Assembly: GCA_019694735.1 (NCBI GenBank)
Contig: JAIBBJ010000199.1
Location: 16,661-80,660 of the forward strand
From: Gemmatimonadaceae bacterium
GTDB lineage: Bacteria > Gemmatimonadota > Gemmatimonadetes > Gemmatimonadales > Gemmatimonadaceae
Length of the DNA: 64,000 nucleotides
Reading direction: 5' to 3'
Shown here: in pieces, positions 1,516 to 59,617 of the stretch
Position numbering within the stretch: the stretch's first letter is position 1
Layout of the letters: every line of letters begins with the position of its first letter
Program-made: the position numbers and the translations under genes
The notes under the pieces: generated by a model
The model's database searches: none
What the model was told of the DNA's origin: nothing
What the model saw: the letters and a program-made list of their open reading frames with translations, nothing else

Positions 1516-1548
1516 CACGCGCTCCGGGAGGGGAGGGACGCCGCGAAG

Positions 1549-3257: not shown

Positions 3258-3348
3258 GCGGCGCGCGGCTGGCACAACGCCAGCGGCCCTGCCTACGTTC
3301 AGGCGTCGGGGCGGACCGCCCCGCCCGCGACCTCCCACTCCCACGGTC

Positions 3349-6609: not shown

Positions 6610-6644
6610 GCGCAGGCGGGGCCGGGGAGGGACGCCGTGCGGCG

Positions 6645-8387: not shown

Positions 8388-8412
8388 GCCGACGGCGGGG
8401 CGTCCACGCCGT

Positions 8413-8450
8413 GTCCGCGCCGCGCCGGCGGGCGGGAGCGCGGCGCGGAC
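8413..8450. terminator. GC-rich inverted repeat between convergent genes (putative terminator)
   Basis: 13-bp arms GTCCGCGCCGCGC / GCGCGGCGCGGAC between the stops at 8387 and 8457. Confidence 0.4.
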
Positions 8451-8456
8451 CCGGCG

Positions 8457-11648: not shown

Positions 11649-11804
11649 GCCCAACGTTGCATCACGGCCACGGGGGGCGGCAACCCGCGGCGCGGGTCCG
11701 CGCGGACGGCCGGACAACCTTCCGGGCCGCGCCGGCGGTCCAACGGAGGATGCGGCGGCCGCCCGCGTGTGCCACATTCTCCCCACTCCCTTCGCCCCGA
11801 CCCG

Positions 11805-14147: not shown

Positions 14148-14226
14148 CGGGCCGGCCGCGCGCGGGGGCGGTCCCGGCGCCGCGGCCGCCCGGGTCAGGT
14201 CCGCGCGGGGCGCAGGTCAGGTCCCC

Positions 14227-45551: not shown

Positions 45552-45711
45552 GGGGCCCTCCGGCTCGTTCGGATCCACCGTACAGGTGCAATACTGCCCG
45601 GCGGTGCGGTGGGAGCCATCAGCGGAGATGCTGAACCCGTGTGCGGGGAAACCGTAGGTGGGCCGAAGCCGCACGGGTGGGTTCCCTCGCACGGCGCGGC
45701 CGGGAAGCACG

Positions 45712-45741
45712 ACGGGGCGGCGCCGTCCGGCGCCGCCCCGT
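45712..45741 (-). terminator. 13-bp-stem hairpin downstream of the giant FN3 gene
   Basis: ACGGGGCGGCGCC-GTCC-GGCGCCGCCCCGT, 25 bp past the stop at 45767. Confidence 0.5.
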
Positions 45742-45766
45742 TGCGTGTCGAGCCGCTGTCGAGCGG

Positions 45767-48700
45767 TCAGGGATAACCGCGGGCCCAGTGGTTGGTCAGG
45801 TTGCCGGTGTAGGCGGTGGAGAGGATCGGATAGACGGCGGGCAACGCCGTCCCCCACGTGTGGCTGATGTAGTTCACCGTGGTGGGGCTGCCGGTGTCCT
45901 GTGTCCGCGTGATGGTGTTCTGGAAGTTGACCATCAGCCAGTACGTGCCGGCGGCGACCGTCACGTTGCCCGTCGTGAACTCGACCTGGCCGGTCGTGCT
46001 GATGGTCCCGACGGCCTGCGCGACGAGCACGCTGGGCCGGCCGGCGGCATCGGTGTAGAGCCCGATCCGCGCGCCGCCGGTGCCGCCGGCGACGTTCAGC
46101 CCGAGGTGCGTGAGCGTGATCGGCTGCGAGATCGTGATCTGCTGGCCGATCAGGTAGTTCGGGCTCCACGGGCTCGTCCCGGCGAAGGCCGTCGGGTAGC
46201 CGTAGCGCACCACGTACGAGGCCTTCACGGAGACGTTGGAGAACGAGCTGTAGCCCTGCAGCATGATGAACCAGTCACCGGCCGCCGGGTTGTCGATGAC
46301 GCACTCCTCGGCGTTGCCGCCGATGTACGGCCGGCAGTTGAAGAGCCCGAGGGTCGCCGCGAACCCTTGGCGCACGTACAGGTCGGCGTCGCCGGTGCCG
46401 CCCGAGATGGTGACGCGCAGCTGCGGCGTGCCGGCGGGCACGTTGATGACGTAGTGGCGCTGCGCGGACGCGGTGTCCGTGATGCCGGCGATCGTCTGCC
46501 CGTTCGACATCGGGACCGGCATCCACACGCCGGCTCGCACCGTCGTGTCGGAGAGGGTGCCGTTGGAGACCGCGCGGACGGACCACGAGGCGCTGATCCC
46601 GGCCGGCACCGAGGGATAGGTGTACGTCGTGACGTCCGGTCCCACCGTGCCGATCACGCTGACCGGGGTGCACCCGACGCCGCCGCACGCGAGGATCTGG
46701 TAGCCGGTCTCGATCGTGCTGTTGTCGGACCAGGTGACGTCGACCCGCCCGCGGTCCACCACCGTCGCCTGGATGCCGCTGGGCGCGACGAGCACCGTGG
46801 ACGCATCCCCCGACACCGGGCCGCCCGCGGAGAATCCGATGCCGCTCCGGAACGTCCGCACGCGGTAGCGATAGATGCTGTTCGGCACCACCGAGCTGTC
46901 GACGTGCGCGGTGACGTCGACGCCCAGCACCGCGGTGATGCTGAAGTTCGAGCAGCCGGTGCCCGCGCAGCGCTCGATGACGTTGAACGTCTCGTTGTCG
47001 GCGTTGTCGGCCCACGTGACGGTCACGCGGTTGACCGTGTTCGGCGTCACCACGAGCGCGCTCGGGTCGGCCGGCTGCCGCGTGTCCGCCGCCGCCGTGT
47101 TGCTGTACGGGGTCACGCCCACCGCATTGAAGGCGCGGATCCGGTAGACGTATGACCCGTTGAGCACGAGGCCGGTGTTCGCGAAGCCGGTCACGTCCGG
47201 ACCCGTGGTCGCGATCTCCTCGAAGTCGGTGCATCCCGCGCTGCTGCACCGTTCGATGCGGTAGCCGGACTCGTCACTGGCGTTGTCCACCCAGCCCAGG
47301 TTGATCTGGACCGAGTTGATCATCGTCGCCGTCAGCCCCGTCGGGGCCGCCGGCAGCGTGGTCGCCGCGACCGCGGTGGCCGTGTAGGCCGAGTTCCCCA
47401 CCGGGTTCGTCGCGACGATCCGGAACTGGTACGTGTTGTTGAAGGCGAGGTCGTTCACCTGGAAGGCCGCGACGTCCGGCCCCACGCTCGCGAACGGCGC
47501 GAAGTCGACGCATCCGCCGCCCGTGCAGCGCTCGAGGATGAACCCGGTCTCGTTCCCCGAGTTGTCGAGCCAGGTGAGCGACGCCTGGGTCTCCGAGAGG
47601 GTGGTGGCCGCGAGGTTGAGCGGGACGTTCGGCGCATCGAGGAGCTGCAGCACCTCGCTGCTGTTGTCCGACGAGCCCGCCGCGTTGGTGGCGCGGACGC
47701 GGTAGTTGTAGAACTCGCCGGTGGTGAGGCCGGCGTCCTCATAGAAGGTCGAGTTCGCGGGCACGCTGCTCACCGGGGCGAAGTCGGCGCACTCCTTCCC
47801 GAGGCAGCGCTCGATGACGAACGCATCCTCGTTGTTCGCGTTGTCGTTCCAGTCCACCCGGATCGCGGTCGGCGACGTGATGACGAGACCGATGATCTCC
47901 GGGCGGTCGGGCAGCAGGGTCGAGCCCACGGCGAGCGGGGAGGCGCCGGAGATGCCGGCGGCGTTCCGCGCGTAGACGCGGTACGCGTACTGGCGCCCGA
48001 GGTCCACGCGGGCGTCGGCGTAGACCGTCGTCGCCGCGTCCACGGAATCGCGCAGCGCCACCCCGGTGTTGCAGGCCGGGTCGTCGCAGCGTTCGATCAC
48101 GAACCAGATCGGTGCCCCGCCGGCGGACGCGTTCCAGGTCACGTCGATCTGGGTCGCCGTGATGGTCGTCGCCACGACGTCGGTCGGGTCGCCGGGGATG
48201 GAGGTCGTGGCCCCCGCCTCCGCCGTGTAGGCCGAGGCGCCGGCGGCGTTCACCGCCCGCACCCGGTACGTGAAGGATTCATTCGGCGCGATCGGCGCGT
48301 CGGTGAACGCGGTCGTGCCCGGCGGCAGCTGGGCCTGCTCGGTGAAGTCGCTGCACCCGACGCCGGCGCACCGCTCCACGCGGAACGACTCCTCGTTGTC
48401 CGACGCGTCGGCCCAGGCGAGGTCGATGCGCGTGGCGCTCACGGTCGTCGCCGTCAGTCCGGTCGGGGCCGCGGGCAGGTCGGTGTCGAGCTCCACGATC
48501 GCCGAGTAGCCCGAGCTGCCGGCGGCGTTGCTCGCCCGGACCCGGTACCGGTACGTGGTGTTCGCGACCGTCGAGACGTCGCTGAAGCTGACGGTGTTCG
48601 GCGGTTGGAACCCGATCTGGGCGAAGGAGGTGCACCCGGTGCCGGTGCAGCGCTCCACGAAGTAGGCGAGCTCGTTGTCCGCGGCGTCGACCCACGCGAG

Positions 48701-51700
48701 GTCGATCCGGGTGGCGCTGATCACGGTCGCCGCGAGGCCCGTCGGGTCCGCCGGCGTGTTCGTGCCCGCCGCGGCCACGTTCGACGCGCCCGAGACGCCG
48801 GAGGCGTTCTGCGCGCGGACGCGGTACAGGTACGCGATCCCCGCCGGCAGGCCGGTGTCGCTGTAGTTGGTGCTGTTCGCGGCGATCGTCGCGATCGTCG
48901 CGAACGTGCAGGCCGAGGCCTGGCAGCGCTCGATGACGTACGCGGTCTCGTCGGTCGCGTTGTCGGTCCAGGCGAGGTCGATCCGGGTCGCGTTGACCGT
49001 CGTCGCCGTCAGCGCCGTCGGGATCCCCGGCACGTTCGTCACGGCCGAGACGATGGCGCTGTAGCCCGACGGGCCGGCGCCGTTCACCGCGCGGACCCGG
49101 TAGCGGAAGGTGCTGCTGCCCGCGAGGCCGGCGTCGCTGTATTCCGTCGCGCCGGCCGCCGTGGTGGCGATGAGCGCGAAGTCCGTGCAGCTGCCGCCGG
49201 CGCACCGCTCGATCTGATAGCCGGTCTCGTTGTCCGCGTTGTCCGACCACGCGAGGTCGATCCGGGTGCCCGACACCGCGGTCGCGGTCGCGCCGCTCGG
49301 GTCGGCCGGCAGGATCGTCGTCGCGGTCGCGGCGTTCGACCACCCCGAGCTGCCCTCCGAGAAGGCCCGCACGCGGTAGGTGTACGACGTCGCGGCGGCG
49401 ATCGGCGTGTCGCTGTAGCTCGTGGCGTTCGCGGCGAGCGTCGCGAGCAGCGTGAAGCTCGAGCAGCCCGCGCCCGTGCAGCGCTCCACGCGGTAGCCCG
49501 TCTCGTCAGAGGCGTTGTCGGTCCACGCGAGGTCGATCCGGGTCGTCGAGAGCGGGCCCGCGACGAGGTTCGTCGGGTCGAGCGGCACGACGGTGCTGCC
49601 GTCGGCGACGTCGGAGTAGGCCGAGTTCGCGACGCCGTTGTACGACCGCACCCGGTACCGGTAGGTCGTGCCGATGGTCAGCGTCGAGTCGGCGTGCGTC
49701 GTCACGTTGGCCGCGACCGTCGCAACCTCGGTGAACGTCGTGCACCCGACGCCCGCGCACCGCTCGATCCGGAAGCCCGTCTCGTTCGAGGCCGGGTCCG
49801 TCCAGGTCAGGTCGATGCGGGTGCCCAGCACCGTCACGGCGTCGAGTGCCGTCGGGGCGGCCGGGGCGAACGTGTTCGGGCTCACCGTCGCCGTGTACGC
49901 CGAGCTGCCGGCGGCGTTCACCGCGCGGACGCGATAGCGGTAGAAGGTGTTGCTCGCGAGACCGCCGTCCACGTAACCGGTGGCGCCGGGGGCCAGCTGG
50001 ATGAGTTGCGTGAAGCTCGTGCAGGACACGCCGGTGCAGCGCTCGACGCGGTAGCTGACCTCGTTCGTCGCGTTGTCGGTCCACGCCAGCGTGATCTCGG
50101 TGGGGGCCGTCACGACGGCCGAGAGGCCCGTCGGGTCCGCCGGCAGGAGGGTGCTCGCCTCGACCGGCCCGTCATAGCCGGCCGCGCCCGCGTTGTTGAA
50201 GGCCCGGATGCGGTACCGGTAGGCGTTGCCCACCGCGACCGACAGGTCGGTGTACGTGGTGGCGTCCACCGGCGCGGTGCCGATCTCGGCGAAGTCGCTG
50301 CAGCCGCTGCCGGTGCACCGTTCGATCGCGACGCCGTTCTCGTTGGTGGCGTTGTCGGTCCAGCTCAGGTCGATGCGGGTCCCCGTCGTCGTCACCGCGG
50401 CGAGGCCCGTCGTCGCGGCCGGCCGCAGCGTGTTCGCCGTCGCCGTCGCGGAATACGCCGACGCGCCCACGCGGTTCACCGCGCGCACGCGGTATCCGTA
50501 GGTCTGGTCGAGCGCACCCGTCGAATCGACGAGCGAGTTGGTGTTCGGCGCGAGCGAGTCCAGCCGCGCGAAGGTCGTGCAGCCGACCCCCGTGCAGCGC
50601 TCCACCTCGAGCCCGGTCTCGTTGGTCGCCCCCTCCGTCCAGCTCAGCGCGATCCGCGTGCCCGACTGCAGCACGGCGGTCAGGCCGGTCGGCGCGGTCG
50701 GCGTCGTCACCGAGGCGGTCGCCGTGTTCGAGAAGCGCGACGACCCGTTCGCGTTGATCGCCCGCACGCGGTAGGTCATCACGTTGCCGAGCGCCAGCCC
50801 GCCGTCCACGTACTGCGCGACGTTGGTGCCCACCAGGATGAGGTCGCTGAAGTCGCCCTCGCCGCAGGGCAGGGCGGTGCAGCGCTGGATGACGAACCCG
50901 TCCTCGTTCGCCGAGTTGTCCGTCCAGGCGACGGTGATCGCGGTCGGCGAGGTCGCCGTCGCCGTGAGGCTCGTCGGGTCGGCCGGCACGTCGGTCGTCG
51001 CATCGACGACCGCCGAGAAGGCCGAGGCGCCCGCGCCGTTCAGCGCGCGCACCCGGTAGCGGTACGTGAGGTTCGGCGTCAGGCTCGCGTCGCTGTACGC
51101 CTGCGTGTCCGGGGCCAGGCTGTCCACGCGCGCGAACGCCGTGCAGCCGGCGCCGGTGCAGCGCTGCAGCTCGTACGCGGTCTCGTTCGTGGCGTTGTCG
51201 GTCCACGTGAGGTCCACCTGGGTCGCCGAGACCGTCGTCGCCGCCAGGGCCGACGGCGCGGACGGCAGCACCGTGGTCGCCGTGGCGATGTTCGAGGGGG
51301 CCGACGTGCCGATCAGGTTGGCCGCCACGACGCGGTAGCTGTACGACTGCCCGGCGGCGACCGTGCTGTCGATGTGGCTCGCGACGCCGGCTCCGACCGA
51401 GACGAGGTCCGTGAAGCCGCCGCAGGCGACGCCCGTGCACCGCTGGATCGTGAAGACCGTCTCGTTGTCCGAGGCGTCGGCCCACGCGAGCGCGATCCGC
51501 GTGGTCGAGGTCGCCTGCGCGGTCAGCGACGCGGGCGCGGCCGGTGTCGCCAGCGTCGTCACGGCGACCGCGGTGTACGCGGACGCGCCGGCGCCGTTGA
51601 CCGCCCGCAGCCGATACGCGTACGTCAGGCCCGGCGTGAGGCCGGCATCCCCGGCCCCGGTCGCGTTCGCCGCCGCGGTGATCACGAGCGCGAAGTCGCT

Positions 51701-54700
51701 GCAGCCGACGCCGGCGCACCGCTCGATCTCGAATCCGGTCTCGTCGCCCGAGTTGTCGGTCCACGAGATCGTCGTGCCCGTCGCGCTCGCCGGCACCACC
51801 GTGAACGCCGACGGGATCGCCGGGAGGTTCGTCGAGGCCGCCGCCGTGTTGGAGTAGGCCGACGTGCCGGCCAGGTTCCGGGCCCGCACGCGGTAGGTGT
51901 AGGTCTGCGACGCCGTGAGCCCCTCGTTCGCGTACGCCGTCACGTTCGCGCCCACCGAGTCGAGCAGGGCGAACGTGGTGCAGCCCGCGCCCTGGCAGCG
52001 CTCGACGTAGAAGCCGGTCTCGTTCGTCGCGTTGTCGGTCCAGCTCAGGTCCACGCGCGTGTCCGACTGCGTCGCCGCCGCGAGGCCGGTCGGGGCGCTC
52101 GGCAGCTCCGTCGAGGCCGTCGCCGTCGCGGTCGGGGTCGAGAGGCCCGAGAAGTTGCGCGCGAGGACGCGGTACCCGTACACGTTGCCCACGGTCGCCG
52201 TCAGGTCGGTGTACGCGGCGATGCCGCCCGCCACCGAGTCGATGACCGTGAACGTCGCGCAGCCGGCGCCGGTGCAGCGCTCGACCAGCACGCGCGTCGC
52301 ATCGAGCGCGTTGTTGGTCCACGCCAGCGCCACCGAGGTGCCGGACGTCGTGGTCGCCGTCAGCGCGCTCGGCGCGTTCGGGAGCGTCGTCGAGACCGAC
52401 GCGACGTTGGAGGCCGCGCCGGCGCCGACGATGTTGAAGACGACGACGCGGTAGTCGTACGACGTGGACGGGGCGACCGTGGAGTCGATGAACGACGTCA
52501 CGTTCGGCCCGACGGTGTCCAGCGGCGCGTACGTGCACCCGGTGCCCGCGCACCGCTGGACGATCACCCCCGACTCGTTCGCCGCGTTGTCGGTCCACGA
52601 GAGCGTCACGCGCGGGCCGGCCGAGAGCGTCGCCGCCAGCGCGGACGCCGGGTTCGGCGCCCGCGTGTCGCCGATCGCGATCGCCGTGTAGCCCGACGCG
52701 CCCGCGGCGTTGTACGCCCGGACGCGGTACCGGTACGCGGTGCCCGCGGCCACGCTGGCGTCCGCGTAGCCGACGATGTTCGCGCCGACGGTGCCGATCT
52801 CGACGAAGTCCGTGCAGGCCTCGCCGGTGCAGCGCTCGATGCGGAAGCCGAGCTCCGTCACGGCGCCGTCCGTCCAGGCCAGGCTCACCTGCGTCGGGCC
52901 GCTCGTCGTCGCGACGAGGTCGGTCGGGTCGCCCGGCGCGGCCGTGGCGACCGTGGCCACGTTCGACGCCGCCGACGGGCCGGTCGCGTTGACCGCCCGC
53001 ACGCGCCACCGATACGTCGTGCCGGCCGTCAGGCCGGTGTTCTGGTAGGTCACCACGTTCGAGTCGAGCGTCGCGAGCGTCGTGAAGTTGACGCAGCCCA
53101 CGCCCGCGCACCGCTCGACGACCTGCGCCGTCTCGTTCGTCGCGTTGTCCACCCACGACAGGTCCACCTGGGTCGTCGAGATCAGCGTCGCCGTGAGCGT
53201 CGACGGCGCCGCCGCGCTCCGCGTGCTCGCGACCGCATCGCTCGTGTAGGCGGAGTTGCCGACCGCGTTGCGGGCGCGCACGCGGTAGCGATAGTCGCCC
53301 TCCGCGGCCACCGTCTGGTCGTTGTACGTGTTCGTCCCGGCGGTGACGAAGCCCACCTCGGTGAACGCGGTGCACCCGACGCCGCTGCAGCGCTCGATGC
53401 GGAAGGTCGTCTCGTTGTCCGAGGCGTCCGTCCACGCGAGGTTGACCTGCGTCCCCGAGATCGTCGCGGCCGAGAGGCCGGCGGGCGGGGCGGGGAGGAG
53501 CACGGCGGCGAGCACCGGGCCCGCCTCGACCGAGGTGCCGGCCACGCCGACCGCCTTCACGCGGTACCGGTAGCTCGAGCCGACGACCACCGAGTCGTCG
53601 GTGAAGCTCGTGGCGCCGGCCGCCAGCGTCGCGCGCAGGCCGAAGCCCGAGCAGCCGGTGCCGGTGCAGCGCTCGACCTGGAAGCCCGTCTCGTTGCTCG
53701 TCGTGTCGGCCCAGCTCAGGTCCACGCGCGAGGCCGAGACCACGCTGGCGGCGAAGCTCGCCGGCACGCCCGGCGGGCGCGTGTTCGCGTTCGCCGTGTT
53801 CGTCGCCGCCGCCGATGCCCCGGCGACGTTCACCGAGCGCACGCGGTAGCTGTAGTAGGTGTCCGCGATGACCGTGACGTCGCTGTACGCCGTCGCGTTC
53901 GCCGCCGTGGTGTCGATCGCCGCGAACGTCGTGCACCCCTGGCCCGTGCAGCGCTCGATCACGAAGCCCGTCTCGGTCGCCGAGTTGTCGGCCCACGAGA
54001 GGTCGATCTGCGTCGCCGAGATCGTCGTCGCCGCGAGGGCGGTCGGGGCGGCCGGCCGGATGGTGTTCGCGGTCGCGGTGGCGCTGTAGGCCGAGGGCGC
54101 GACGTTGTTCGTCGCCCGGACACGGAACACGTAGGTGTTGTCGAGCGCGAGGCCCGTCGCGCTGGCGGTCGTCGTCCCCGCCGGCAGCGTCGCGATGGTC
54201 GTGAAGTCGGCGTCGCCCGCGCAGGTGCCGTTGTTGCAGCGCTGGACCTCGAACGCCGTCTCGTTGTTCGAGTTGTCCGACCACGCGAGGTCGATCCGCG
54301 AGCCGGAGATCGTCGTCGCCGTCAGCGCGCTCGGGGCCGTCGGGCCGGCGAGCACGACGTCCACCGGGCCGGCGTACGCCGAGTTGCCGATGGCGTTGCG
54401 CGCGCGGACGCGGTAGCGGTACGTCTGGCCGGCGGTCAGCCCGGCGTCGCTGAAGCTCGTGTCGTTCGCCGCGCCCGCCGTCAGCTCGGCGAAGTCCGTG
54501 CAGGCCGCGCCCTGGCAGCGCTCGATCCGGTACGAGGTCTCGTTGTCCGCCGCGTCGGCCCAGCGCACGCGCGCCGCCGTGGCCGACGTCGCGAGCACCG
54601 CGAGCCCCGTCGGGGCCGCGGGCAGCCGCTTCACCGTGAGGATCAGCTCATAGTGGCCCACCGAGCTCCCGGTGCGCCCCACGCGCACCAGCACGTGCTC

Positions 54701-55690
54701 CGTCGCCGGCGCCACGCCGACCACCCGCGAGTCGGTGCTGCCGGTGATGTCATCCTCGGCGGCGCCGAAGCCCGTCGTGCCGTCGGCCCGGAACAACGCC
54801 AGCGTCGTGTTCAGCGGCGAGGCGGGCGTCAGTCGCGCGGCGCGGGTCTCCGCGAACACCGAGTCGCCCGCCCGCACGCTGATCGCCTGCCAACCTTCGG
54901 TGAGCGAGGCGATGAGGTTGCGGTCGCGGAGCGTGTCGGGGACGCCGGCCGGATTGAGGCTCGCCGGCGCGCCGAGGGCGGCCGCCGGGGTGCGGTTCCC
55001 CGTCGAGGGCCGCACGAAGAACTGCCGGGCGTCGCTCCAGATCACCTCGGTGAACGTCTGGAAGGGCAGCACCGGCCGCGTCCGGATGTGCCAGCTGCCG
55101 GTGTCGGACACGGTGACCGTGAACTGCGAGCCCGCGGCCGTCTGCGTCGCCGGCGCGTCCCCGAACGCCGGGTCCCGCGACACCTGGTACTGCCAGCCCG
55201 TCGCCAGCGTGAACGACGTGCTCAGCGTGACCGGCTGCGCGAAGTCGACCGTGTCCGCCACGGCGAACGCCGGGATCGTCGGCACCACCGGCGCCACCGT
55301 GACGTTGCCCGGCACGTTGGCACCGCCGGTCACGGTGATCGCCGCGCCCGAGCGCCCGTAATGCTGCACCTGCCCGCCGACCGTGCCCTCGACGAAGAGC
55401 TCGTACGTGCCGTTCGGCACGTCCGGGATCTGCCCCGTCCAGTTGTTGCTGGTCGTGTTGAGCGTCAGCGCCGCGGAGGTCTGGAAGGTCGTCGTGCCGG
55501 TGCCGCGGATCGTCGCGCGCATGCCGGTGAGCGGCTGGATCGCGTGCGCGCTCAGCGGGTCGGCGACGACCGTGAAGACCGGCGTGATCCGCCCGTGCGT
55601 CTGCGGCCGCGTGGGCGCGTCGCACGAGATGGCCACGGACGCGGCCGCGAGGACGGCCGCCAGGACGAGGGGTCGACGAGTCGTATGCAT
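45767..55690 (-). CDS. 3307-aa surface lipoprotein with 29 fibronectin type III repeats, PPC domain(s) and C-terminal beta-sandwich (putative adhesin)
   Basis: Lipoprotein-type signal ending VAISC; 29 repeats of about 93 aa counted by eye (P..P..L.A....I.L.W.DN..NE.G(F/Y).IERC.G.GC..F...Y.YRVRA.N..G.S); PPC motif GGTGDADLYVRQG..CRPYIGGNAEEC. Confidence 0.9.
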   Translation of the reverse strand: MHTTRRPLVLAAVLAAASVAISCDAPTRPQTHGRITPVFTVVADPLSAHAIQPLTGMRATIRGTGTTTFQTSAALTLNTTSNNWTGQIPDVPNGTYELFVEGTVGGQVQHYGRSGAAITVTGGANVPGNVTVAPVVPTIPAFAVADTVDFAQPVTLSTSFTLATGWQYQVSRDPAFGDAPATQTAAGSQFTVTVSDTGSWHIRTRPVLPFQTFTEVIWSDARQFFVRPSTGNRTPAAALGAPASLNPAGVPDTLRDRNLIASLTEGWQAISVRAGDSVFAETRAARLTPASPLNTTLALFRADGTTGFGAAEDDITGSTDSRVVGVAPATEHVLVRVGRTGSSVGHYELILTVKRLPAAPTGLAVLATSATAARVRWADAADNETSYRIERCQGAACTDFAELTAGAANDTSFSDAGLTAGQTYRYRVRARNAIGNSAYAGPVDVVLAGPTAPSALTATTISGSRIDLAWSDNSNNETAFEVQRCNNGTCAGDADFTTIATLPAGTTTASATGLALDNTYVFRVRATNNVAPSAYSATATANTIRPAAPTALAATTISATQIDLSWADNSATETGFVIERCTGQGCTTFAAIDTTAANATAYSDVTVIADTYYSYRVRSVNVAGASAAATNTANANTRPPGVPASFAASVVSASRVDLSWADTTSNETGFQVERCTGTGCSGFGLRATLAAGATSFTDDSVVVGSSYRYRVKAVGVAGTSVEAGPVLAAVLLPAPPAGLSAATISGTQVNLAWTDASDNETTFRIERCSGVGCTAFTEVGFVTAGTNTYNDQTVAAEGDYRYRVRARNAVGNSAYTSDAVASTRSAAAPSTLTATLISTTQVDLSWVDNATNETAQVVERCAGVGCVNFTTLATLDSNVVTYQNTGLTAGTTYRWRVRAVNATGPSAASNVATVATAAPGDPTDLVATTSGPTQVSLAWTDGAVTELGFRIERCTGEACTDFVEIGTVGANIVGYADASVAAGTAYRYRVRAYNAAGASGYTAIAIGDTRAPNPASALAATLSAGPRVTLSWTDNAANESGVIVQRCAGTGCTYAPLDTVGPNVTSFIDSTVAPSTSYDYRVVVFNIVGAGAASNVASVSTTLPNAPSALTATTTSGTSVALAWTNNALDATRVLVERCTGAGCATFTVIDSVAGGIAAYTDLTATVGNVYGYRVLARNFSGLSTPTATATASTELPSAPTGLAAATQSDTRVDLSWTDNATNETGFYVERCQGAGCTTFALLDSVGANVTAYANEGLTASQTYTYRVRARNLAGTSAYSNTAAASTNLPAIPSAFTVVPASATGTTISWTDNSGDETGFEIERCAGVGCSDFALVITAAANATGAGDAGLTPGLTYAYRLRAVNGAGASAYTAVAVTTLATPAAPASLTAQATSTTRIALAWADASDNETVFTIQRCTGVACGGFTDLVSVGAGVASHIDSTVAAGQSYSYRVVAANLIGTSAPSNIATATTVLPSAPSALAATTVSATQVDLTWTDNATNETAYELQRCTGAGCTAFARVDSLAPDTQAYSDASLTPNLTYRYRVRALNGAGASAFSAVVDATTDVPADPTSLTATATSPTAITVAWTDNSANEDGFVIQRCTALPCGEGDFSDLILVGTNVAQYVDGGLALGNVMTYRVRAINANGSSRFSNTATASVTTPTAPTGLTAVLQSGTRIALSWTEGATNETGLEVERCTGVGCTTFARLDSLAPNTNSLVDSTGALDQTYGYRVRAVNRVGASAYSATATANTLRPAATTGLAAVTTTGTRIDLSWTDNATNENGVAIERCTGSGCSDFAEIGTAPVDATTYTDLSVAVGNAYRYRIRAFNNAGAAGYDGPVEASTLLPADPTGLSAVVTAPTEITLAWTDNATNEVSYRVERCTGVSCTSFTQLIQLAPGATGYVDGGLASNTFYRYRVRAVNAAGSSAYTATVSPNTFAPAAPTALDAVTVLGTRIDLTWTDPASNETGFRIERCAGVGCTTFTEVATVAANVTTHADSTLTIGTTYRYRVRSYNGVANSAYSDVADGSTVVPLDPTNLVAGPLSTTRIDLAWTDNASDETGYRVERCTGAGCSSFTLLATLAANATSYSDTPIAAATSYTYRVRAFSEGSSGWSNAATATTILPADPSGATATAVSGTRIDLAWSDNADNETGYQIERCAGGSCTDFALIATTAAGATEYSDAGLAGSSTFRYRVRAVNGAGPSGYSAIVSAVTNVPGIPTALTATTVNATRIDLAWTDNATDETAYVIERCQASACTFATIATIAANSTNYSDTGLPAGIAYLYRVRAQNASGVSGASNVAAAGTNTPADPTGLAATVISATRIDLAWVDAADNELAYFVERCTGTGCTSFAQIGFQPPNTVSFSDVSTVANTTYRYRVRASNAAGSSGYSAIVELDTDLPAAPTGLTATTVSATRIDLAWADASDNEESFRVERCAGVGCSDFTEQAQLPPGTTAFTDAPIAPNESFTYRVRAVNAAGASAYTAEAGATTSIPGDPTDVVATTITATQIDVTWNASAGGAPIWFVIERCDDPACNTGVALRDSVDAATTVYADARVDLGRQYAYRVYARNAAGISGASPLAVGSTLLPDRPEIIGLVITSPTAIRVDWNDNANNEDAFVIERCLGKECADFAPVSSVPANSTFYEDAGLTTGEFYNYRVRATNAAGSSDNSSEVLQLLDAPNVPLNLAATTLSETQASLTWLDNSGNETGFILERCTGGGCVDFAPFASVGPDVAAFQVNDLAFNNTYQFRIVATNPVGNSAYTATAVAATTLPAAPTGLTATMINSVQINLGWVDNASDESGYRIERCSSAGCTDFEEIATTGPDVTGFANTGLVLNGSYVYRIRAFNAVGVTPYSNTAAADTRQPADPSALVVTPNTVNRVTVTWADNADNETFNVIERCAGTGCSNFSITAVLGVDVTAHVDSSVVPNSIYRYRVRTFRSGIGFSAGGPVSGDASTVLVAPSGIQATVVDRGRVDVTWSDNSTIETGYQILACGGVGCTPVSVIGTVGPDVTTYTYPSVPAGISASWSVRAVSNGTLSDTTVRAGVWMPVPMSNGQTIAGITDTASAQRHYVINVPAGTPQLRVTISGGTGDADLYVRQGFAATLGLFNCRPYIGGNAEECVIDNPAAGDWFIMLQGYSSFSNVSVKASYVVRYGYPTAFAGTSPWSPNYLIGQQITISQPITLTHLGLNVAGGTGGARIGLYTDAAGRPSVLVAQAVGTISTTGQVEFTTGNVTVAAGTYWLMVNFQNTITRTQDTGSPTTVNYISHTWGTALPAVYPILSTAYTGNLTNHWARGYP

Positions 55691-55699
55691 CGGTCAGGA

Positions 55700-57403
55700 T
55701 CAGGGATTCGGGACCGTGATGACCACCGTGCCGGTGGTGCTGCCGCCGCCACCGCCACCACCGCCGCCACCACCACCACCCATCGCGGCCGCCGCGGCGG
55801 CGCCGCCGCCCAGCACCGCGATCCACACCCACTTCGGCATGCCGCCCTTCTTCGCGACCGCCGGTGGCGCGCCGCCGCCCGGGCCCGCGGCCACCGCCGT
55901 GCGCAGCGGCACCGCGATGCGCGTGAGCTGCCCCGGCTGGAGCAGCACGTCCTGCGTGCGCGTCGGCAGCCCCGGGGCGCTCGTCTCGAGGCGATACCGC
56001 CCCATCGGCCCCGTGAACGTGAACGGCGACGCGCCCGTCGTGCCGGTCGTCACCTCGCCCCAGTGCCACCGCTCGATCCCGACGAGGCGCACCGAGGCGC
56101 CCGGCACGTCGGCCACCACCGTCAGCTGGCCGAAGAGATGGTTCTCGCGCCGCGCGACGTCGGCGACCGCGATCGTCTGCTGCGCCGTCACCGCCTGCCG
56201 CGCCGCCGCCAGCAGGGCCGCGGCGTTCGGGCCCGGCACCGCCGCGGACGCGCCCGACCACGGGCCGATCAGCCGGCCGAGGTAGTCCACCACCGGCGAG
56301 CCCGGCACCGCGTTCGCGATCTCCGTCCCCAGCTTGAGCGCGCCGAGCGGCCGCTGCGTCCACTCGTCGAGCGTGCTGCGCGTGTCGCCGGCGGTCCGGC
56401 ACTGCGCGAGGCCGATGCCCCACGCCGCCTGCCCGTCGATCAGCTGCGTCGCGAGCGGCGTCGAGTCCGGCCGCGCCTGCGGCAGCGCGAGCACCGCGAG
56501 GTTCGCGGTCGCGTCGTATGCCGCCACGCGGACTTCGCCCGGGGCGGGCGTGCCATTGAAGGACGCGCTGATCGCATCGCCGCCGCGGATCGCGCTGTAG
56601 GTCGTGACCACGAAGCGCCCGCCCACCACCGCGCCGGCGGCGCACGTCGGCGCCGCCGCGCCGAAGCGCGTCACCGACAGGGCCACGGTCGCGCGGAACG
56701 CCCGCTGCCGCGCGTCCTCGGTGATGTTCGCCGAGACCACCGCCGCCGACGTGAGCTGGAACGAGAGCGTCAGGTTCACGCCCGGCAGCACCTCGCGCGT
56801 GATGCGCGCGGGCAGGTAGCCCGTCGCGCCCACCTCGATCTCGTACGTCCCCGGCGCGAGCGTGAGCCCCGGACCGGCCGGGAGCACGCCGATCGTGTTG
56901 CCGTTGGCGCCGCGCACGAGGACGTTCACCGGCACCGGCATCGTCGAGGGGTCGAGCCGCAGCTGGCCCTGCGCCGCGCGGTTGCCGACGGCGGGCCACT
57001 GGTACGCCATGCGCGTGACGTCGTCGCCCGCGGTGCGCGAGCCGACCGCGGTCCGCGCCGTCCGCAGGGCCGTGACGACGCCCTGCGGGAAGGCGACGGT
57101 GTCGATCACGATCGCCGGATTGGTCCGCATCACCCAGCGCGCCCATGTCCCGGCGAGCGTCTCGTCGCCATTCTCGAGCAGCAGCTGCGTCACGAGTTGG
57201 GCGGCGCGCGCCCAGTTCGCGTCGGGCGCGCCGAGCGCGGGATTGAGCGCCGCGCGCGCGAAGTCCAGCGCGCGGTCGGGCGCGAAGTCGTCGTACGCCT
57301 GCGTCGCCTGCCGGAGCAGGTCGGAGCGCGTGGGCTGCTGCGCCGCGGCGGGCGCGGCGGCGACGGCCGCGAGTGCGGCGGCGAGAAGGAGGCGGCGCAT
57401 CAT
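55700..57403 (-). CDS. Secreted/anchored protein: helical N-domain, PEGA-like, degenerate trypsin-like domain, PEGA-like, hydrophobic + poly-Gly tail
   Basis: Signal peptide AAA/QQ; PGTYEIEVGATGY and GRYRLETSAPG PEGA-like motifs; trypsin-like scaffold (FVVTTYSAI, YD..ANLAVL, PGSPVVDYLGRLIG); ATGA overlap with the kinase. Confidence 0.75.
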   Translation of the reverse strand: MMRRLLLAAALAAVAAAPAAAQQPTRSDLLRQATQAYDDFAPDRALDFARAALNPALGAPDANWARAAQLVTQLLLENGDETLAGTWARWVMRTNPAIVIDTVAFPQGVVTALRTARTAVGSRTAGDDVTRMAYQWPAVGNRAAQGQLRLDPSTMPVPVNVLVRGANGNTIGVLPAGPGLTLAPGTYEIEVGATGYLPARITREVLPGVNLTLSFQLTSAAVVSANITEDARQRAFRATVALSVTRFGAAAPTCAAGAVVGGRFVVTTYSAIRGGDAISASFNGTPAPGEVRVAAYDATANLAVLALPQARPDSTPLATQLIDGQAAWGIGLAQCRTAGDTRSTLDEWTQRPLGALKLGTEIANAVPGSPVVDYLGRLIGPWSGASAAVPGPNAAALLAAARQAVTAQQTIAVADVARRENHLFGQLTVVADVPGASVRLVGIERWHWGEVTTGTTGASPFTFTGPMGRYRLETSAPGLPTRTQDVLLQPGQLTRIAVPLRTAVAAGPGGGAPPAVAKKGGMPKWVWIAVLGGGAAAAAAMGGGGGGGGGGGGGSTTGTVVITVPNP

Positions 57404-59232
57404 CCCTTGGGCTTGAGCTCGATGGTGATCGTCTTCACTTCACCGGCCTGCAGGTCCACCGTCTGCGAGACGGTCTCGTAACCGTCCTTCGAGACCTTGA
57501 TCGTGTGCGTCCCGCCGAGGAGACGCTCCTGGAAGTTCCCCTTGTTGCCGAGCGAGCGGCCGTCGATCTCGACCGTCCCCGCCACGGGGAGCCGCACGCG
57601 GAGCGTCGCCATCGCCGCGTCGGCGGCGCCTGCCGCCGGCGCACTCGGCGCGGGCTGCGTGGCGGGCTGCTGGGCGGGCAGCGTGGAAGCGGGTACGGTC
57701 GCCGGCGCGGAGGCCTGCTGGCGCGGCGCCGGGGCCTTGGTCGGGGCCTTCGTCGGCGCCTTGGTCTCCGCGGCAGGCGCCTTCGTCTCCGCCGCCGGCT
57801 TCGTCTCGGTCGCCGGGGGCGTCGTGGCGGGGGGCGCGCTCGCCCCCGTCGCGGAATCGGTGCCGGTCGTCGCCGCGCCGGCGACCGGGCCCGGCGTCGC
57901 CGTGCCCAGGGCCGACACCGGGGCCGACGCGACCTGCTGCGTCACCGGCGTGGCCGGCGCCTCGCCGCCCTTCGTCGCGAAGTACGCCGCCGCCCCGCCG
58001 CCGAGCACCACCACCGCGCCAATCACGGCGAACAGGCCGGCCTTGCTCTTCGGCTCCGGCGCCGGCGCAGGGGCCGGCGCGGCGGTCCGCGCCGCCGGCT
58101 TCTGCCCCGCCACCACCGTGCGGTCGTTCGGCCCCGTCGTCGCCTTCGCCGCCGACGACCGGTTCTTGCCGCTCGTCGAGCCCGCCGGATTCGCACCCGG
58201 GCCGCCCGTCCGCAGCTTCTTCGCCTCCGCGGGGTCGAGCACGACCGTCGCCACGCTCGGCCGCACCGGGCCGCGGGCCACGAAATCCGGGTCGGCCATC
58301 GACTCGATGAAGTCGTGCACCGTCAGGAAGCGGTCCGCCGCGTCCTTCGAGAGCGCGCGGGCCACCGCCTGCGCGACATGCGCCGGGATGTCCGGCACGT
58401 CGTCGTGCAGCGACGGGGCGGGGAACATGCAGTGCTTGTGCAGGATGTCGATCGCCGAGTCGCCGTCGAACGGCACGTGCCCCGCGAGCATCCGATACGC
58501 CATCACCGCCACCGAGTACTGGTCCGAGGCGCCGGAGACCGGCTTCCCCATCCCCTGCTCGGGGCTCATGAAGTACGGCGTGCCGATCACCGAGTCGGTC
58601 GCCGTGAGCTTCCCCTCGGAGAGCGCCTTCGCGATGCCGAAGTCCGTCACGATCACGCGGTCGCGCGAGTCCAGCATCACGTTCGCCGGCTTGATGTCGC
58701 GGTGGATGACCTTGTTCTGGTGCGCGTAGTCGAGGGCGTCGGCGACCTGGCGGAGGATCTCGCAGGTCTCGTCCACCGGGAGCGACCCGCGCTCCTTCAG
58801 CCGGTCCTCGAGCGACTGCCCCTCGAGGAACTTCATCGCGTACCAGAAGAGCTTGCCGCTGTCGCCGATCCGGTAGATCGGGATGATGTGCGGGTGGTCG
58901 AGCGCCGCCGCCGTCCGCGCCTCGCGCTTGAACCGCTCGACGCCATGACCGAACGTGAGCTCCGGCGGCAGCACCTTCAGCGCCACCTTGCGGGCCAGCC
59001 CCGTCTCCTCGGCGAGGTACACGACCGCCATGCCGCCGCGGCCGAGCATGTGCTTGACGTTGTAGACCCCCTTCGTGTCCTCGCGGAGCAGCCGCTCCAT
59101 GTGCAGGAACGAGGACTGGTCCATCGCCGCGGTCGCCGCGGCTTGGCCCTCGGCGTCGGAGACGAGGGACCCGCAGGAATGACAGAAGCGCGCCTCGTCA
59201 GGGACGGGCGTGCTGCAGTGGGCGCAGATCAT
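57400..59232 (-). CDS. Eukaryotic-like Ser/Thr protein kinase with N-terminal zinc ribbon, TM helix and C-terminal PEGA domain
   Basis: CAHC..CHSC; GRGGMAVVY; VALKVL; HRDIKPANV; DFGIAK; GTPYFMSPEQ; SDQYS; TM LFAVIGAVVVLGGGAAAYF; GTHTIKVSKDGYE. Confidence 0.93.
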   Translation of the reverse strand: MICAHCSTPVPDEARFCHSCGSLVSDAEGQAAATAAMDQSSFLHMERLLREDTKGVYNVKHMLGRGGMAVVYLAEETGLARKVALKVLPPELTFGHGVERFKREARTAAALDHPHIIPIYRIGDSGKLFWYAMKFLEGQSLEDRLKERGSLPVDETCEILRQVADALDYAHQNKVIHRDIKPANVMLDSRDRVIVTDFGIAKALSEGKLTATDSVIGTPYFMSPEQGMGKPVSGASDQYSVAVMAYRMLAGHVPFDGDSAIDILHKHCMFPAPSLHDDVPDIPAHVAQAVARALSKDAADRFLTVHDFIESMADPDFVARGPVRPSVATVVLDPAEAKKLRTGGPGANPAGSTSGKNRSSAAKATTGPNDRTVVAGQKPAARTAAPAPAPAPEPKSKAGLFAVIGAVVVLGGGAAAYFATKGGEAPATPVTQQVASAPVSALGTATPGPVAGAATTGTDSATGASAPPATTPPATETKPAAETKAPAAETKAPTKAPTKAPAPRQQASAPATVPASTLPAQQPATQPAPSAPAAGAADAAMATLRVRLPVAGTVEIDGRSLGNKGNFQERLLGGTHTIKVSKDGYETVSQTVDLQAGEVKTITIELKPKG

Positions 59233-59617
59233 CGGGCGTGAAGGGCCGTCGAATGGGGTGGGACCGACCCGCCGAATATCCGGTCAGACTCTAATGTTTG
59301 CAATATCCCGGACCGTCGAGGGTCGAACCGCCATCGGGACTCGGAACGGTGAGAGAATCGTGCCAGTCCGTCACGGTGGTGGAAGTCCCGACCGGCATCG
59401 CCGCCAAGTCCTTTCCGCGCAACGCGTTGCTCGGGGCCCGCAGCTGGGCGTCGCCGACGGGCTCCCCCCGGCGACCTGCGTCACCCCGGGAGGCGGTCGG
59501 AGGTTACCATGGGACCGTGCGACCGGACCCCTCTGACCGGCGGCTGCCGCGCGCGGCCCGTGCGCCGGGGCGCGAGTGATGCGCCGCTGCCGCGGCGCCG
59601 GTGCGGCGATTCGCCAG

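What the first reader, a model, noticed from the sequence alone, without database searches (positions are those of the whole stretch)
45767..59232. Candidate undescribed three-gene surface-sensing system: Ser/Thr kinase, pseudoprotease, giant FN3 adhesin
Seen: kinase and pseudoprotease overlap (ATGA), the FN3 gene starts 9 bp later, and a hairpin closes the unit. The kinase has intact catalytic motifs, a cytoplasmic zinc ribbon, one TM helix, a Pro/Ala/Thr stalk and an external PEGA domain; the middle protein also has PEGA-like domains. Inference: an envelope-spanning relay in which contact or tension on the long adhesin is passed through PEGA-containing partners to a Hanks-type kinase, loosely analogous to receptor-kinase adhesion signalling.
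Basis: partly seen in the sequence, partly recalled or inferred. Interest (0 to 1): 0.75.

Follow-up and report, generated by a model that had tools for sequence, protein, structure and literature searches.

The report
Kinase, dead protease, giant lipoprotein operon
An uncultured wastewater bacterium (Gemmatimonadaceae) carries a tightly linked three-gene unit for a membrane Ser/Thr kinase, an inactive HtrA-like protease partner and a giant repeat lipoprotein; the three genes are gained and lost together, so they probably form an undescribed envelope receptor-kinase complex, but what it senses is untested.

Summary
Three minus-strand genes run from a conserved promoter-like element to a strong hairpin:
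- a kinase (57400-59232);
- an inactive protease (55700-57403);
- a 3307-aa lipoprotein (45767-55690).

The kinase is an intact Hanks kinase with a zinc ribbon, one membrane helix and an external PEGA domain. The middle protein has a helical domain, a PEGA-like sandwich, an HtrA/DegS-like fold without the catalytic triad, a second sandwich, and a membrane anchor. Its closest solved structure is the cellulose-binding inactive protease domain of RsgI9. The third protein has 29 diverged FN3 repeats and a tip of binding modules.

Across 55 genomes of the genus, all three genes are present or absent together. Kinase and partner overlap by 1 or 4 nt in 16 of 16 loci.

In four genomes of the genus (a fifth, in a second genus, starts the same way) the FN3 giant is replaced by a Big_2/RCC1 lipoprotein that keeps only the N-terminal ~210 residues. 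The pairing of a PEGA-ended protein, a kinase where its whole length is visible, with a helical/PEGA partner recurs well outside this genus.

The best reading is a split receptor kinase with an exchangeable antenna, similar in logic to TagQ/TagR-PpkA. Tension sensing is not supported. All function is inferred.

The parts
59275..59303 (-). Promoter-like element TTGCAA-17 nt-GATATT, 42 nt upstream of the kinase ATG
   Evidence: TTGC[CG]N-(16-18)-[GA]ATATT lies at the same distance from the start codon in 13 of 16 orthologous loci. It matches 8 of 12 consensus positions, below the threshold of the consensus scan. Its function is inferred from conservation only.
57400..59232 (-). Hanks-type Ser/Thr kinase, 610 aa. 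Zn ribbon at aa 3-22 (59167-59226), kinase domain at aa 57-301 (58330-59064), membrane helix at about aa 399-420 (57973-58038), Pro/Ala/Thr linker, external PEGA domain at aa 553-608 (57409-57576)
   Evidence: The orthologue alignment shows that the Zn ribbon, the following SCGSxVSDAxGQAAA motif and the catalytic core are highly conserved, while the linker is not. It is the only clear PEGA-bearing kinase among 24 Hanks kinases in the genome.
55700..57403 (-). Membrane-anchored inactive-protease partner, 567 aa. Signal peptide; helical domain at aa 26-128 (57020-57328); PEGA-like sandwich at aa 130-215 (56759-57016); HtrA/DegS-like fold at aa 239-385 (56249-56689); second sandwich at aa 424-498 (55910-56134); membrane helix, poly-Gly and conserved C-terminal strand TGxIxIxVPNP (55703-55834)
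   Evidence: AlphaFold2 model with mean pLDDT 84.8. Foldseek top hit is RsgI9 S1C-NTF2 (7sjy, E 4e-12), followed by DegQ, DegS and AlgW. Profile search against PDB: Deg1 1e-9, RsgI9 9e-7, MamO 5e-4. Catalytic positions read His to S270, Asp to N302 and Ser to P367; the His and Ser columns vary across 27 family members. The tail is unique in the genome.
45767..55690 (-). Giant lipoprotein, 3307 aa. Lipobox AIS-C22 with Asp at +2 (55625-55690); N-terminal region aa 23-360 (54611-55624), of which about aa 12-209 is the part conserved across payload types; 29 FN3 repeats at aa 357-3059 (46514-54622); PPC domain at aa 3080-3146 (46253-46453); C-terminal jelly-roll at aa 3160-3307 (45770-46213)
   Evidence: Repeats are 41% identical on average (range 22-58%), so the array is old. 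The tip model has pLDDT 90; the best fold match is the ColG tandem collagen-binding domains (5iku, E 1.4e-5). No catalytic domain was found.
45708..45747 (-). GC-rich hairpin after the last gene (13-bp stem GGGGCGGCGCC..., loop GGAC, plus a 4-bp extension)
   Evidence: -44.9 kcal/mol, z = -3.84, and 0 of 200 shuffles fold as well. It has no T-tract, so a terminator role is inferred.

Best explanation
The three genes are one operon that encodes a split receptor kinase in the envelope of a two-membrane bacterium.

- The Hanks kinase has a cytoplasmic Zn ribbon and catalytic domain, and a periplasmic PEGA domain on a long flexible linker. It has no ligand-binding ectodomain of its own.
- Its translationally coupled partner is anchored in the inner membrane. 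It displays a helical domain, two PEGA-type sandwiches and an inactive HtrA-like domain, and serves as co-receptor and adaptor.
- The large lipoprotein docks through its conserved N-terminal ~210 residues. It carries an exchangeable ligand-binding 'antenna'. Here that is 29 FN3 spacers ending in a PPC domain (collagen-binding-domain-like) and a jelly-roll module. In relatives it is Big_2 plus an RCC1 propeller.

Binding of a polymeric or particulate ligand would change the assembly or clustering of the complex and so switch on kinase autophosphorylation. This would resemble how the TagQ/TagR complex is thought to dimerise PpkA.

Shown here: gene order, coupling, co-inheritance, domain content, loss of protease catalysis, payload exchange, and recurrence of the PEGA-ended gene and partner pair.

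Inferred: physical contacts, direction of signal flow, ligand, and output.
For: 1. Co-inheritance across 55 genomes of the genus. The kinase orthologue is in 31, the partner in 29, and the lipoprotein N-terminal module in 24 plus the payload variants. The 2 kinase-only cases lie at contig ends. No genome has the partner or the lipoprotein without the kinase. 24 genomes, closed ones included, lack all three.
2. Kinase and partner overlap by 1 or 4 nt in 16 of 16 loci. The gap from partner to third gene is -4 to +10 nt in most FN3-type loci.
3. The unit keeps its own promoter-like element in 13 of 16 loci, while the flanking genes differ.
4. Kinase and partner share PEGA-type sandwiches.
5. The partner's core has an HtrA fold without the catalytic triad. 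Its nearest solved relative, the RsgI9 S1C domain, is a non-catalytic, cellulose-binding sensor module of a transmembrane signalling protein (PMC12203970).
6. The payload is exchanged while the N-terminal module is kept, in G010, G194, G198 and G205; the cut-off third gene of G083 begins the same way.
7. The partner's helical + PEGA module has 245 representative clusters. Of the six distant members I looked up, two sat on ~1-kb contigs that show no neighbours. In the other four, an overlapping upstream gene ends in PEGA in three; one of these is a full 957-aa Zn-ribbon kinase, and the other two are fragments cut by the contig end. The fourth has a Zn-ribbon protein upstream and a PEGA kinase downstream.
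8. The giant's tip consists of binding-type folds and has no enzyme domain.
9. Activated-sludge metatranscriptome contigs match all three genes exactly.
10. A lipoprotein, a periplasmic partner and a Hanks kinase form a proven working module in TagQ/TagR-PpkA (PMC13713981).
Against: - There is no direct evidence for any protein-protein contact. No multimer prediction could be run.
- The lipoprotein's first domain is not demonstrably PEGA-like (hhalign 7-37%), so the idea that PEGA domains dock all three proteins is unproven for the third.
- No phosphatase, FHA protein or regulator lies in the unit or on the contig, so the output is unknown.
- The conserved Asp at +2 of the lipobox would mean inner-membrane retention under the E. 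coli rule. That is hard to reconcile with an extended stalk of roughly 100 nm.
- The metatranscriptome contigs do not span the gene junctions and may contain DNA.
- Co-inheritance fits a regulator-and-cargo relationship just as well.
Confidence: 0.45

Rival explanations
1. Biogenesis and quality-control unit. The inactive HtrA-like protein is a dedicated, membrane-tethered holdase or chaperone for the very large lipoprotein, like the chaperone mode of DegP but without proteolysis. The kinase monitors or regulates this export or assembly. For example, it could phosphorylate the partner's conserved Thr/Ser-rich cytoplasmic tail. In this reading the lipoprotein is the cargo, not the sensor.
For: HtrA fold without a triad. 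Strict co-inheritance with large repeat lipoproteins of two different kinds. A conserved cytoplasmic tail, [ST][ST]GxIxIxVPNP, after the membrane helix. Tight coupling of the genes.
Against: Many distant members of the partner's N-module family are only ~280-450 aa, too short to include the pseudoprotease part; the two ~280-290-aa members I looked up gave no context, but one 450-aa member still sits directly after a PEGA kinase. This places the conserved function in the kinase-partner contact rather than in chaperoning. No PDZ domain was found, although HtrA chaperones use one to capture clients. The closest solved relative is a sensor module, not a chaperone.
Confidence: 0.25
2. One reading: a mechanical relay. 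Contact or tension on the long FN3 stalk is transmitted through the PEGA partners to the kinase.
For: There are 29 FN3 domains, each probably stapled by a C-x4-C disulfide, ending in binding modules. The module is anchored at one end by lipid.
Against: Four close relatives replace the stalk with a compact Big_2/RCC1 protein. Others fuse a propeller directly to the partner. A long stalk is therefore not needed for whatever the conserved core does. No data bear on force.
Confidence: 0.1
3. Co-located but functionally independent genes. The lipoprotein is a biofilm or floc matrix protein or adhesin. The kinase and partner are unrelated envelope proteins that merely share a transcript.
For: No interaction data exist. 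The organism lives in activated-sludge flocs and biofilms, where adhesins are expected.
Against: Presence and absence match exactly across 55 genomes, and the gene order is kept despite changing flanks and a payload swap at the same position.
Confidence: 0.12
4. Anti-phage defence: a PD-T4-6-like kinase linked to a surface decoy or receptor.
For: PADLOC PD-T4-6 models match the kinase (E 6e-93).
Against: The match is to the generic Hanks catalytic domain, and the genome has 24 such kinases. The other two proteins have no PADLOC match. No mobile-element or defence-island context was seen.
Confidence: 0.03

Closest known systems
TagQ/TagR-PpkA sensor module of the Pseudomonas aeruginosa H1-T6SS (PMC13713981)
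   Same: A membrane lipoprotein plus a periplasmic partner form a complex that engages the periplasmic part of an inner-membrane Hanks kinase, probably by dimerising it. The genes are clustered.
   Different: No homologous domains are shared beyond the kinase core. Here the domains are PEGA, an inactive HtrA fold and FN3 or RCC1. No T6SS genes, no Fha and no TagST-like ABC genes lie nearby. The partner is membrane-anchored, and the lipoprotein is about ten times larger.
RsgI9 anti-sigma factor ectodomain of Clostridium thermocellum (PDB 7sjy; PMC12203970, citing Mahoney et al. 2022)
   Same: It is the best structural match to the middle protein (Foldseek E 4e-12; profile E 9e-7). It is an S1C/HtrA-like domain used as a non-catalytic extracytoplasmic ligand (cellulose) sensor in a transmembrane signalling protein.
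   Different: RsgI9 is a single-chain anti-sigma factor that signals by regulated proteolysis. Here the inactive protease is a separate protein coupled to a Ser/Thr kinase and flanked by PEGA sandwiches. No NTF2 domain was detected.
HtrA family (DegS, DegP, DegQ, AlgW) and the known inactive protease MamO
   Same: Same trypsin-type fold. The TM-score normalised to the target is 0.64-0.74 for DegS and HtrA1 protease domains. The 'TxY.AIRG' and 'D..G.l.G' scaffold motifs are conserved.
   Different: Catalytic His and Ser are absent across the family. No PDZ domain was found. The membrane anchor is C-terminal.
PFNA operon of Bifidobacterium (pkb2-fn3-aaa-atp-duf58-tgm; PMC8430577)
   Same: A Ser/Thr kinase gene lies next to a gene for an FN3-domain surface protein in a lineage-specific cluster that has been proposed to sense external signals.
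   Different: No MoxR-type AAA, DUF58 or transglutaminase genes lie inside the unit. The FN3 protein there has 2 FN3 domains, against 29 here. The organisms belong to different phyla with different envelope types. No inactive protease is present.
Receptor kinases with a built-in propeller sensor, such as Mycobacterium tuberculosis PknD (cited from my own knowledge)
   Same: A Hanks kinase is linked to an extracytoplasmic beta-propeller. The RCC1 variants of this system follow the same logic.
   Different: In PknD the sensor is fused to the kinase. Here it sits on a separate partner or lipoprotein.

Membership tests
Hanks-type (eukaryote-like) Ser/Thr protein kinases | Pkinase fold with Gly-rich loop, VAIK Lys, HRD catalytic loop, DFG and APE motifs | tested here: met
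   PF00069 scores 155.9 bits (cut-off 31.7). GRGGMA, VALK, HRDIKPAN, DFG and SPE are all present and conserved in 16 orthologues.
PknB/Stk1 PASTA kinases | Extracellular PASTA repeats; NCBIfam NF033483 above its cut-off | tested here: not met
   NF033483 scores 297.8 bits against a cut-off of 450. The match covers only the kinase and juxtamembrane part. No PASTA domain was found in Pfam.
PEGA domain proteins (PF08308) | PEGA / CarboxypepD_reg-type beta-sandwich above the gathering score | tested here: met
   Kinase: 37.7 bits (cut-off 20.8). Middle protein: PEGA 22.2 bits and CarboxypepD_reg 41 bits (cut-off 32.3). hhalign of the kinase PEGA domain against the middle protein's sandwich 1 gives 92% and against sandwich 2 gives 86%. 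The giant's first domain is inconclusive at 7-37%.
HtrA / S1C serine proteases | Trypsin-type double beta-barrel fold | tested here: met
   Foldseek probability 1.0 to DegS, DegQ, AlgW and HtrA1, with TM-score up to 0.74 normalised to the target. Profile match to Deg1 at 1e-9.
HtrA / S1C serine proteases | Catalytic triad His-Asp-Ser | tested here: not met
   Aligned positions are S270, N302 and P367. The His and Ser columns are variable and never His or Ser consistently in 27 family members. The protein is therefore an inactive protease, not an enzyme of this family.
HtrA / S1C serine proteases | C-terminal PDZ domain or domains | tested here: not met
   No PDZ match in Pfam. The AlphaFold2 model shows a beta-sandwich in that position instead.
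TagQRST-PpkA threonine phosphorylation pathway | Homologous components and linkage to T6SS and an FHA protein | tested here: not met
   Pfam finds only PEGA on the kinase ectodomain, and HtrA-like and PEGA-like domains in the partner. None of the genome's 7 FHA domains is on this contig. The resemblance is in architecture only.
Bifidobacterium PFNA cluster | Kinase + FN3 protein together with MoxR-type AAA ATPase, DUF58 and transglutaminase genes | tested here: not met
   Only three genes lie between the promoter-like element and the hairpin. Downstream lies a CBS-pair gene on the same strand. The upstream flank is conserved only in the closest relatives, and an earlier scan note reads it as a feo gene. 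Flanks in more distant relatives are unrelated to each other.
Bacterial lipoproteins | Signal peptide ending in a lipobox with invariant Cys | tested here: met
   LAAASVAIS-C22-DAP. The motif SCD[AS]P is conserved in 8 orthologues and in the RCC1-type variant. Lipidation and final location cannot be tested here.
PD-T4-6 defence kinases (PADLOC) | Specific match beyond the generic kinase domain, plus defence context | tested here: inconclusive
   Strong hits (E 6e-93) mainly cover the generic Hanks kinase part (aa ~53-312; the best model extends to aa 535). The partners have no hits. The genome has 24 such kinases.

The most novel reading that the evidence does not exclude
PEGA-ended Hanks kinases and their overlapping 'helical + PEGA' partners form a widespread, unnamed class of modular split receptor kinases in Gemmatimonadota and allied bacteria. 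The partner's module has about 245 clusters at 50% identity. In this class the sensor is supplied in trans and can be exchanged like a cassette: an inactive HtrA domain, an RCC1 propeller, or a giant FN3 or Big_2 lipoprotein. The partner's conserved cytoplasmic C-terminal strand (TGxIxIxVPNP) resembles the last strand of the kinase's own PEGA domain (...LxLxPRP). It may plug into the kinase's cytoplasmic Zn-ribbon region, or act as its phospho-acceptor, and so carry the signal across the membrane.
Probability: 0.25. Interest if true: 0.75.

Novelty: new variant of a known kind. Interest (0 to 1): 0.55.

Why it matters
How bacterial Hanks-type kinases sense anything outside the cell is known for only a few cases, such as PASTA kinases and TagQR-PpkA. 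This locus offers a defined three-part candidate in an abundant wastewater lineage.

It adds three specific points:
- An inactive HtrA fold appears to have been recruited as a co-receptor. The only close precedent is RsgI9.
- The sensor 'antenna' is swapped between close relatives at a fixed docking module.
- The pairing of a PEGA-ended protein (a kinase where its whole length is visible) with the partner extends to a few hundred protein clusters.

If confirmed, it would give a general rule for reading many orphan PEGA kinases. It would also give a handle on how floc- and biofilm-forming Gemmatimonadota perceive surfaces or polymers.

Tried and rejected
- **Paralogous systems in the same genome: none found.** The partner, the lipoprotein N-terminal module and the partner's tail each occur once. 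A second kinase next to a PEGA hit on contig C74 turned out to be a TPR kinase beside a TonB-dependent receptor, and is unrelated.
- **The partner's C-terminal tail as a shared sorting signal: rejected.** No other ORF in the genome ends this way.
- **A conserved fourth gene: none.** Flanks differ between loci: a Big_1 protein, acyl-CoA dehydrogenase, a hybrid histidine kinase, and CBS or a feoB-like gene.
- **Consensus promoter and terminator scan: nothing found.** The promoter-like element emerged only from the comparison of orthologues.
- **Evidence for co-transcription from metatranscriptomes: inconclusive.** Only short contigs were found. All three genes are covered, but no junction is spanned.
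- **PEGA-likeness of the giant's first domain: inconclusive.**
- **Defence system reading: rejected.** PADLOC gives only generic kinase hits.
- **Literature:** searches for PEGA kinases and for kinase and lipoprotein co-receptors found no description of this system.
- **Failed call:** one genome search failed and was repeated successfully with a shorter query.

Full report
**Source and setting**

The window is contig C119:16661-80660 of a 3.5-Mb metagenome-assembled genome (MAG), 97% complete. GC content is about 73%. The nearest public relatives are labelled Gemmatimonadaceae. Near-identical DNA occurs in many activated-sludge, wastewater and biofilm metagenomes.

**Check of the observation**

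Three minus-strand ORFs fill 45767-59232.
- The kinase's TGA overlaps the next gene's ATG (…GGATGATG…).
- The third gene starts 9 nt after the second gene's stop.
- Upstream lies a gap of about 390 nt after the neighbouring upstream gene; an earlier scan note reads that gene as feoB.
- About 20 nt after the last stop there is a hairpin with a 13-bp GC stem plus a 4-bp extension. Its free energy is -44.9 kcal/mol, z = -3.84, and no shuffle folds as well. It has no T-tract, so the consensus scan does not call it a terminator.

Pfam and NCBIfam confirm the domain calls.
- The kinase has Zn_Ribbon_1, Pkinase and PEGA.
- The middle protein has CarboxypepD_reg/PEGA and a sub-threshold Trypsin_2 match.
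- The third protein has fn3 and PPC.

The kinase motifs GRGGMA, VALK, HRDIKPAN, DFG and SPE are intact.

**The kinase**

Among 16 orthologues the Zn ribbon (C3, C6, C17, C20), the following SCGSxVSDAxGQAAA stretch and the catalytic core are nearly invariant. The region after the membrane helix is a low-complexity linker of variable length, ending in a PEGA sandwich in which only scaffold residues are kept.

The genome has 24 Hanks kinases. Only this one has a clear PEGA domain. The kinase is not a PASTA kinase: NF033483 scores below its cut-off.

**The middle protein**

A search of 5.8 billion proteins found 72 full-length homologues. Nearly all are unnamed; the three that carry a name are labelled Gemmatimonadaceae or Gemmatimonadales.

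The AlphaFold2 model built on 27 of them is confident (mean pLDDT 84.8). It shows these parts in order:
- signal peptide;
- five-helix domain (aa 26-128);
- beta-sandwich (aa 130-215);
- double-barrel domain (aa 239-385) plus helices;
- second beta-sandwich (aa 424-498);
- disordered tail containing a hydrophobic helix, a poly-Gly run and a conserved terminal strand.

Foldseek places the core with the RsgI9 S1C-NTF2 ectodomain (7sjy, E 4e-12), followed by DegQ, DegS, AlgW and HtrA1. A family profile finds Deg1 (1e-9), HtrA/DegP-like and DegQ family proteases, RsgI9 (9e-7) and the inactive protease MamO (5e-4).

In those alignments the catalytic residues are replaced:
- His aligns with S270, a column that varies (S, A, T, E, Q, K, N, R).
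- Asp aligns with N302, which is Asp in some members.
- Ser aligns with P367, also a variable column.

Catalysis is therefore lost across the whole family, while the scaffold motifs are kept. RsgI9's protease-like domain is described as a cellulose-binding sensor module (PMC12203970). That is a direct precedent for this fold serving as a non-catalytic receptor in transmembrane signalling.

Both sandwiches of the middle protein are PEGA-type. hhalign against the kinase PEGA profile gives 92% and 86%.

The C-terminal tail is KK, a helix of about 17 hydrophobic residues, Gly13, then STTGTVVITVPNP. The motif [ST]GxIxIxVP.P is conserved, and no other ORF in the genome ends this way. It resembles the last strand of the kinases' PEGA domains (…LxLxPRP; one orthologue ends …LVPNP). 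I record this but cannot explain it.

**The third protein**

- It has a lipobox (AIS-C22) with Asp at +2. The motif SCD[AS]P is conserved in all orthologues examined.
- The N-terminal region of about 360 aa has no Pfam match.
- It has 29 FN3 repeats of about 93 aa, each with a C-x4-C pair. Pairwise identity is 22-58%, mean 41%, and neighbouring repeats are no more alike than distant ones. The array is therefore old, not recently amplified.
- A PPC domain follows, then a C-terminal beta-sandwich ending in a conserved RGYP.
- The tip model (pLDDT 90) best matches the tandem collagen-binding domains of ColG (5iku) and other binding-type sandwiches. No enzyme fold appears.
- Orthologues are 2930-3588 aa long.

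Calling it an adhesin or ligand-binding stalk is reasonable but remains an inference. With Asp at +2, its final location (inner membrane, outer membrane or cell surface) is open.

**Is it a unit?**

- Order. In every related locus with enough contig, the order kinase, partner, third gene is kept.
- Junctions. The kinase-partner junction overlaps by 1 or 4 nt in 16 of 16 loci. The partner-third gene junction is -4 to +10 nt in most FN3-type loci and 56-106 nt in the others.
- Census of 55 genomes of the genus. The kinase orthologue (at least 67% identity) is in 31, the partner in 29, and the lipoprotein N-terminal module in 24 plus the variants below. The two kinase-only cases are at contig ends. 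No genome has the partner or the lipoprotein alone. 24 genomes, including closed or 100%-complete ones, lack all three.
- Spread within the family. Only 2 of 64 sampled genera have the full-length partner.
- Flanks. They are conserved only among the closest relatives and otherwise differ. No fourth gene travels with the unit.
- Promoter. A promoter-like TTGC[CG]N-(16-18)-[GA]ATATT sits 40-70 nt before the kinase start in 13 of 16 loci. No internal promoter-like or terminator-like site was found.
- Expression. Activated-sludge metatranscriptome contigs match all three genes without mismatch. None spans a junction, and DNA carry-over cannot be excluded.

**What changes the picture**

1. In four genomes of the genus (G010, G194, G198, G205), the third gene is 1165-1226 aa where it is complete; in G198 the contig end cuts it at 890 aa. 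Where the whole protein was scanned it carries Big_2 plus other Ig-like repeats and a seven-blade RCC1 propeller. In G083, from a second genus, the cut-off third gene begins the same way, with the N-module and a Big_2 domain. The partners in these four genomes are among the closest to ours (61-64% identity). The variant shares with the FN3 giant only the lipobox and the first ~210 residues (27% identity, E 1e-9). In G010 the downstream flank is the same as in our window. So the gene was replaced in place.
2. In another family of the same order, the PEGA kinase is followed by one 1211-1250-aa protein. There the partner's helical + PEGA module is fused to an RCC1 propeller, a second repeat domain and Big_2.
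3. The helical + PEGA module alone (aa 23-220) finds 245 representative clusters at E no greater than 1e-3. Their lengths are typically about 280, 450 or 550 aa.
4. I looked up six distant members. Two sat on ~1-kb contigs that show no neighbours. The other four were:
   - one directly after, and overlapping, a 957-aa Zn-ribbon/Pkinase/Big_2/PEGA kinase, and followed by another overlapping envelope protein;
   - two after overlapping gene fragments that end in PEGA domains;
   - one after an overlapping Zn-ribbon protein, with a PEGA kinase just downstream.

The conserved core is therefore a PEGA-ended protein, a kinase where its whole length is visible, paired with the helical/PEGA partner. 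The inactive protease, the propellers and the giant lipoproteins are exchangeable additions.

**Mechanism**

The most economical reading is a split receptor kinase. The kinase has no sensing ectodomain beyond a PEGA sandwich on a flexible tether. The partner, made in fixed ratio through translational coupling, supplies matching PEGA sandwiches and a ligand-binding inactive protease. The lipoprotein docks through its conserved N-terminal module and supplies a second, exchangeable binding surface. Ligand-dependent assembly or clustering would then activate the kinase.

This is the logic shown for TagQ (lipoprotein), TagR (periplasmic protein) and PpkA (PMC13713981). The domains are not homologous, and no T6SS or FHA genes are linked here.

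- Shown: the steps up to 'same unit, co-inherited, shared PEGA domains, no catalysis, payload exchange'.
- Inferred: the contacts, the direction of signalling, the ligand and the output.

I give this reading 0.45.

The main rival (0.25) is that the inactive HtrA-like protein is a dedicated holdase for the giant lipoprotein and the kinase regulates its biogenesis. Independent functions (0.12) fit poorly with the matching phyletic pattern. A defence role (0.03) rests only on generic kinase matches.

**Novelty**

I found no description of this system in the literature.

The Bifidobacterium PFNA operon also pairs a kinase with an FN3 protein. It is defined by MoxR, DUF58 and transglutaminase genes, which are absent here (PMC8430577).

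Earlier notes from this scan describe other operons centred on PEGA kinases, in Gemmatimonadales and in a Krumholzibacteria genome. These suggest a broader theme, but they are unchecked leads.

I class this as a new variant of a known kind: a Hanks receptor kinase with accessory envelope proteins. It has three unusual features: the inactive HtrA co-receptor, the swappable antenna, and the breadth of the partner family.

Noticed in passing
L030 (G191:C4:55001-74000), third gene at about locus 4864-14738: In one complete relative (99% complete), the giant FN3 gene is interrupted by in-frame TGA and TAG codons. The open frame from the start is only 179 aa, while the kinase and partner are intact. 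This is either a pseudogene or an assembly error in the repeats.
   Followed up: partly
window 55703-55760 (partner tail) and 57403-57440 (kinase C-terminus): The partner's extreme C-terminus (…TGTVVITVPNP, after a membrane helix and Gly13) looks like the last beta-strand of the kinases' PEGA domains (…LRLTLEPRP; one orthologue ends …RITLVPNP). Both membrane helices contain VLGGGAAA. The significance is unknown. It may simply reflect the Gly/Ala bias of a 73% GC genome.
   Followed up: partly
window 55616-55624 (residues +2 to +4 after the lipobox Cys): Asp directly follows the lipid-anchored Cys in all orthologues and in the RCC1-type variants (SCD[AS]P). Under the E. coli rule this means inner-membrane retention, which is hard to reconcile with a stalk of 29 FN3 domains. 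The lipoprotein sorting rules of Gemmatimonadota are unknown to me.
   Followed up: no
L038 (GCA_004196275.1, SDBV01035160.1) 710-5520: A distant relative of the partner is preceded by an overlapping 290-aa Zn-ribbon protein with no kinase domain. A 742-aa kinase with two PEGA domains lies 460 nt downstream. The module appears rearranged or split.
   Followed up: no
L024 (G003:C1) 1279-6300, minus strand: In the most divergent member of the genus, a 1674-aa PAS/GAF hybrid histidine kinase with a receiver domain lies several kb downstream of the triad on the same strand. In this assembly the FN3 gene is open for only 1006 aa.
   Followed up: no
window 59233-59620: The ~390-nt region upstream of the kinase contains two copies of GGATATT 22 nt apart (59302-59308 and 59275-59281). 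The second copy is the -10-like hexamer conserved in orthologues.
   Followed up: partly
G000:C74:26315-31318: A second kinase in the genome (803 aa, TPR-rich) sits directly upstream of a TonB-dependent receptor that has a CarboxypepD_reg/PEGA-like plug extension. It is unrelated to the triad, but it is another kinase paired with an envelope protein.
   Followed up: partly
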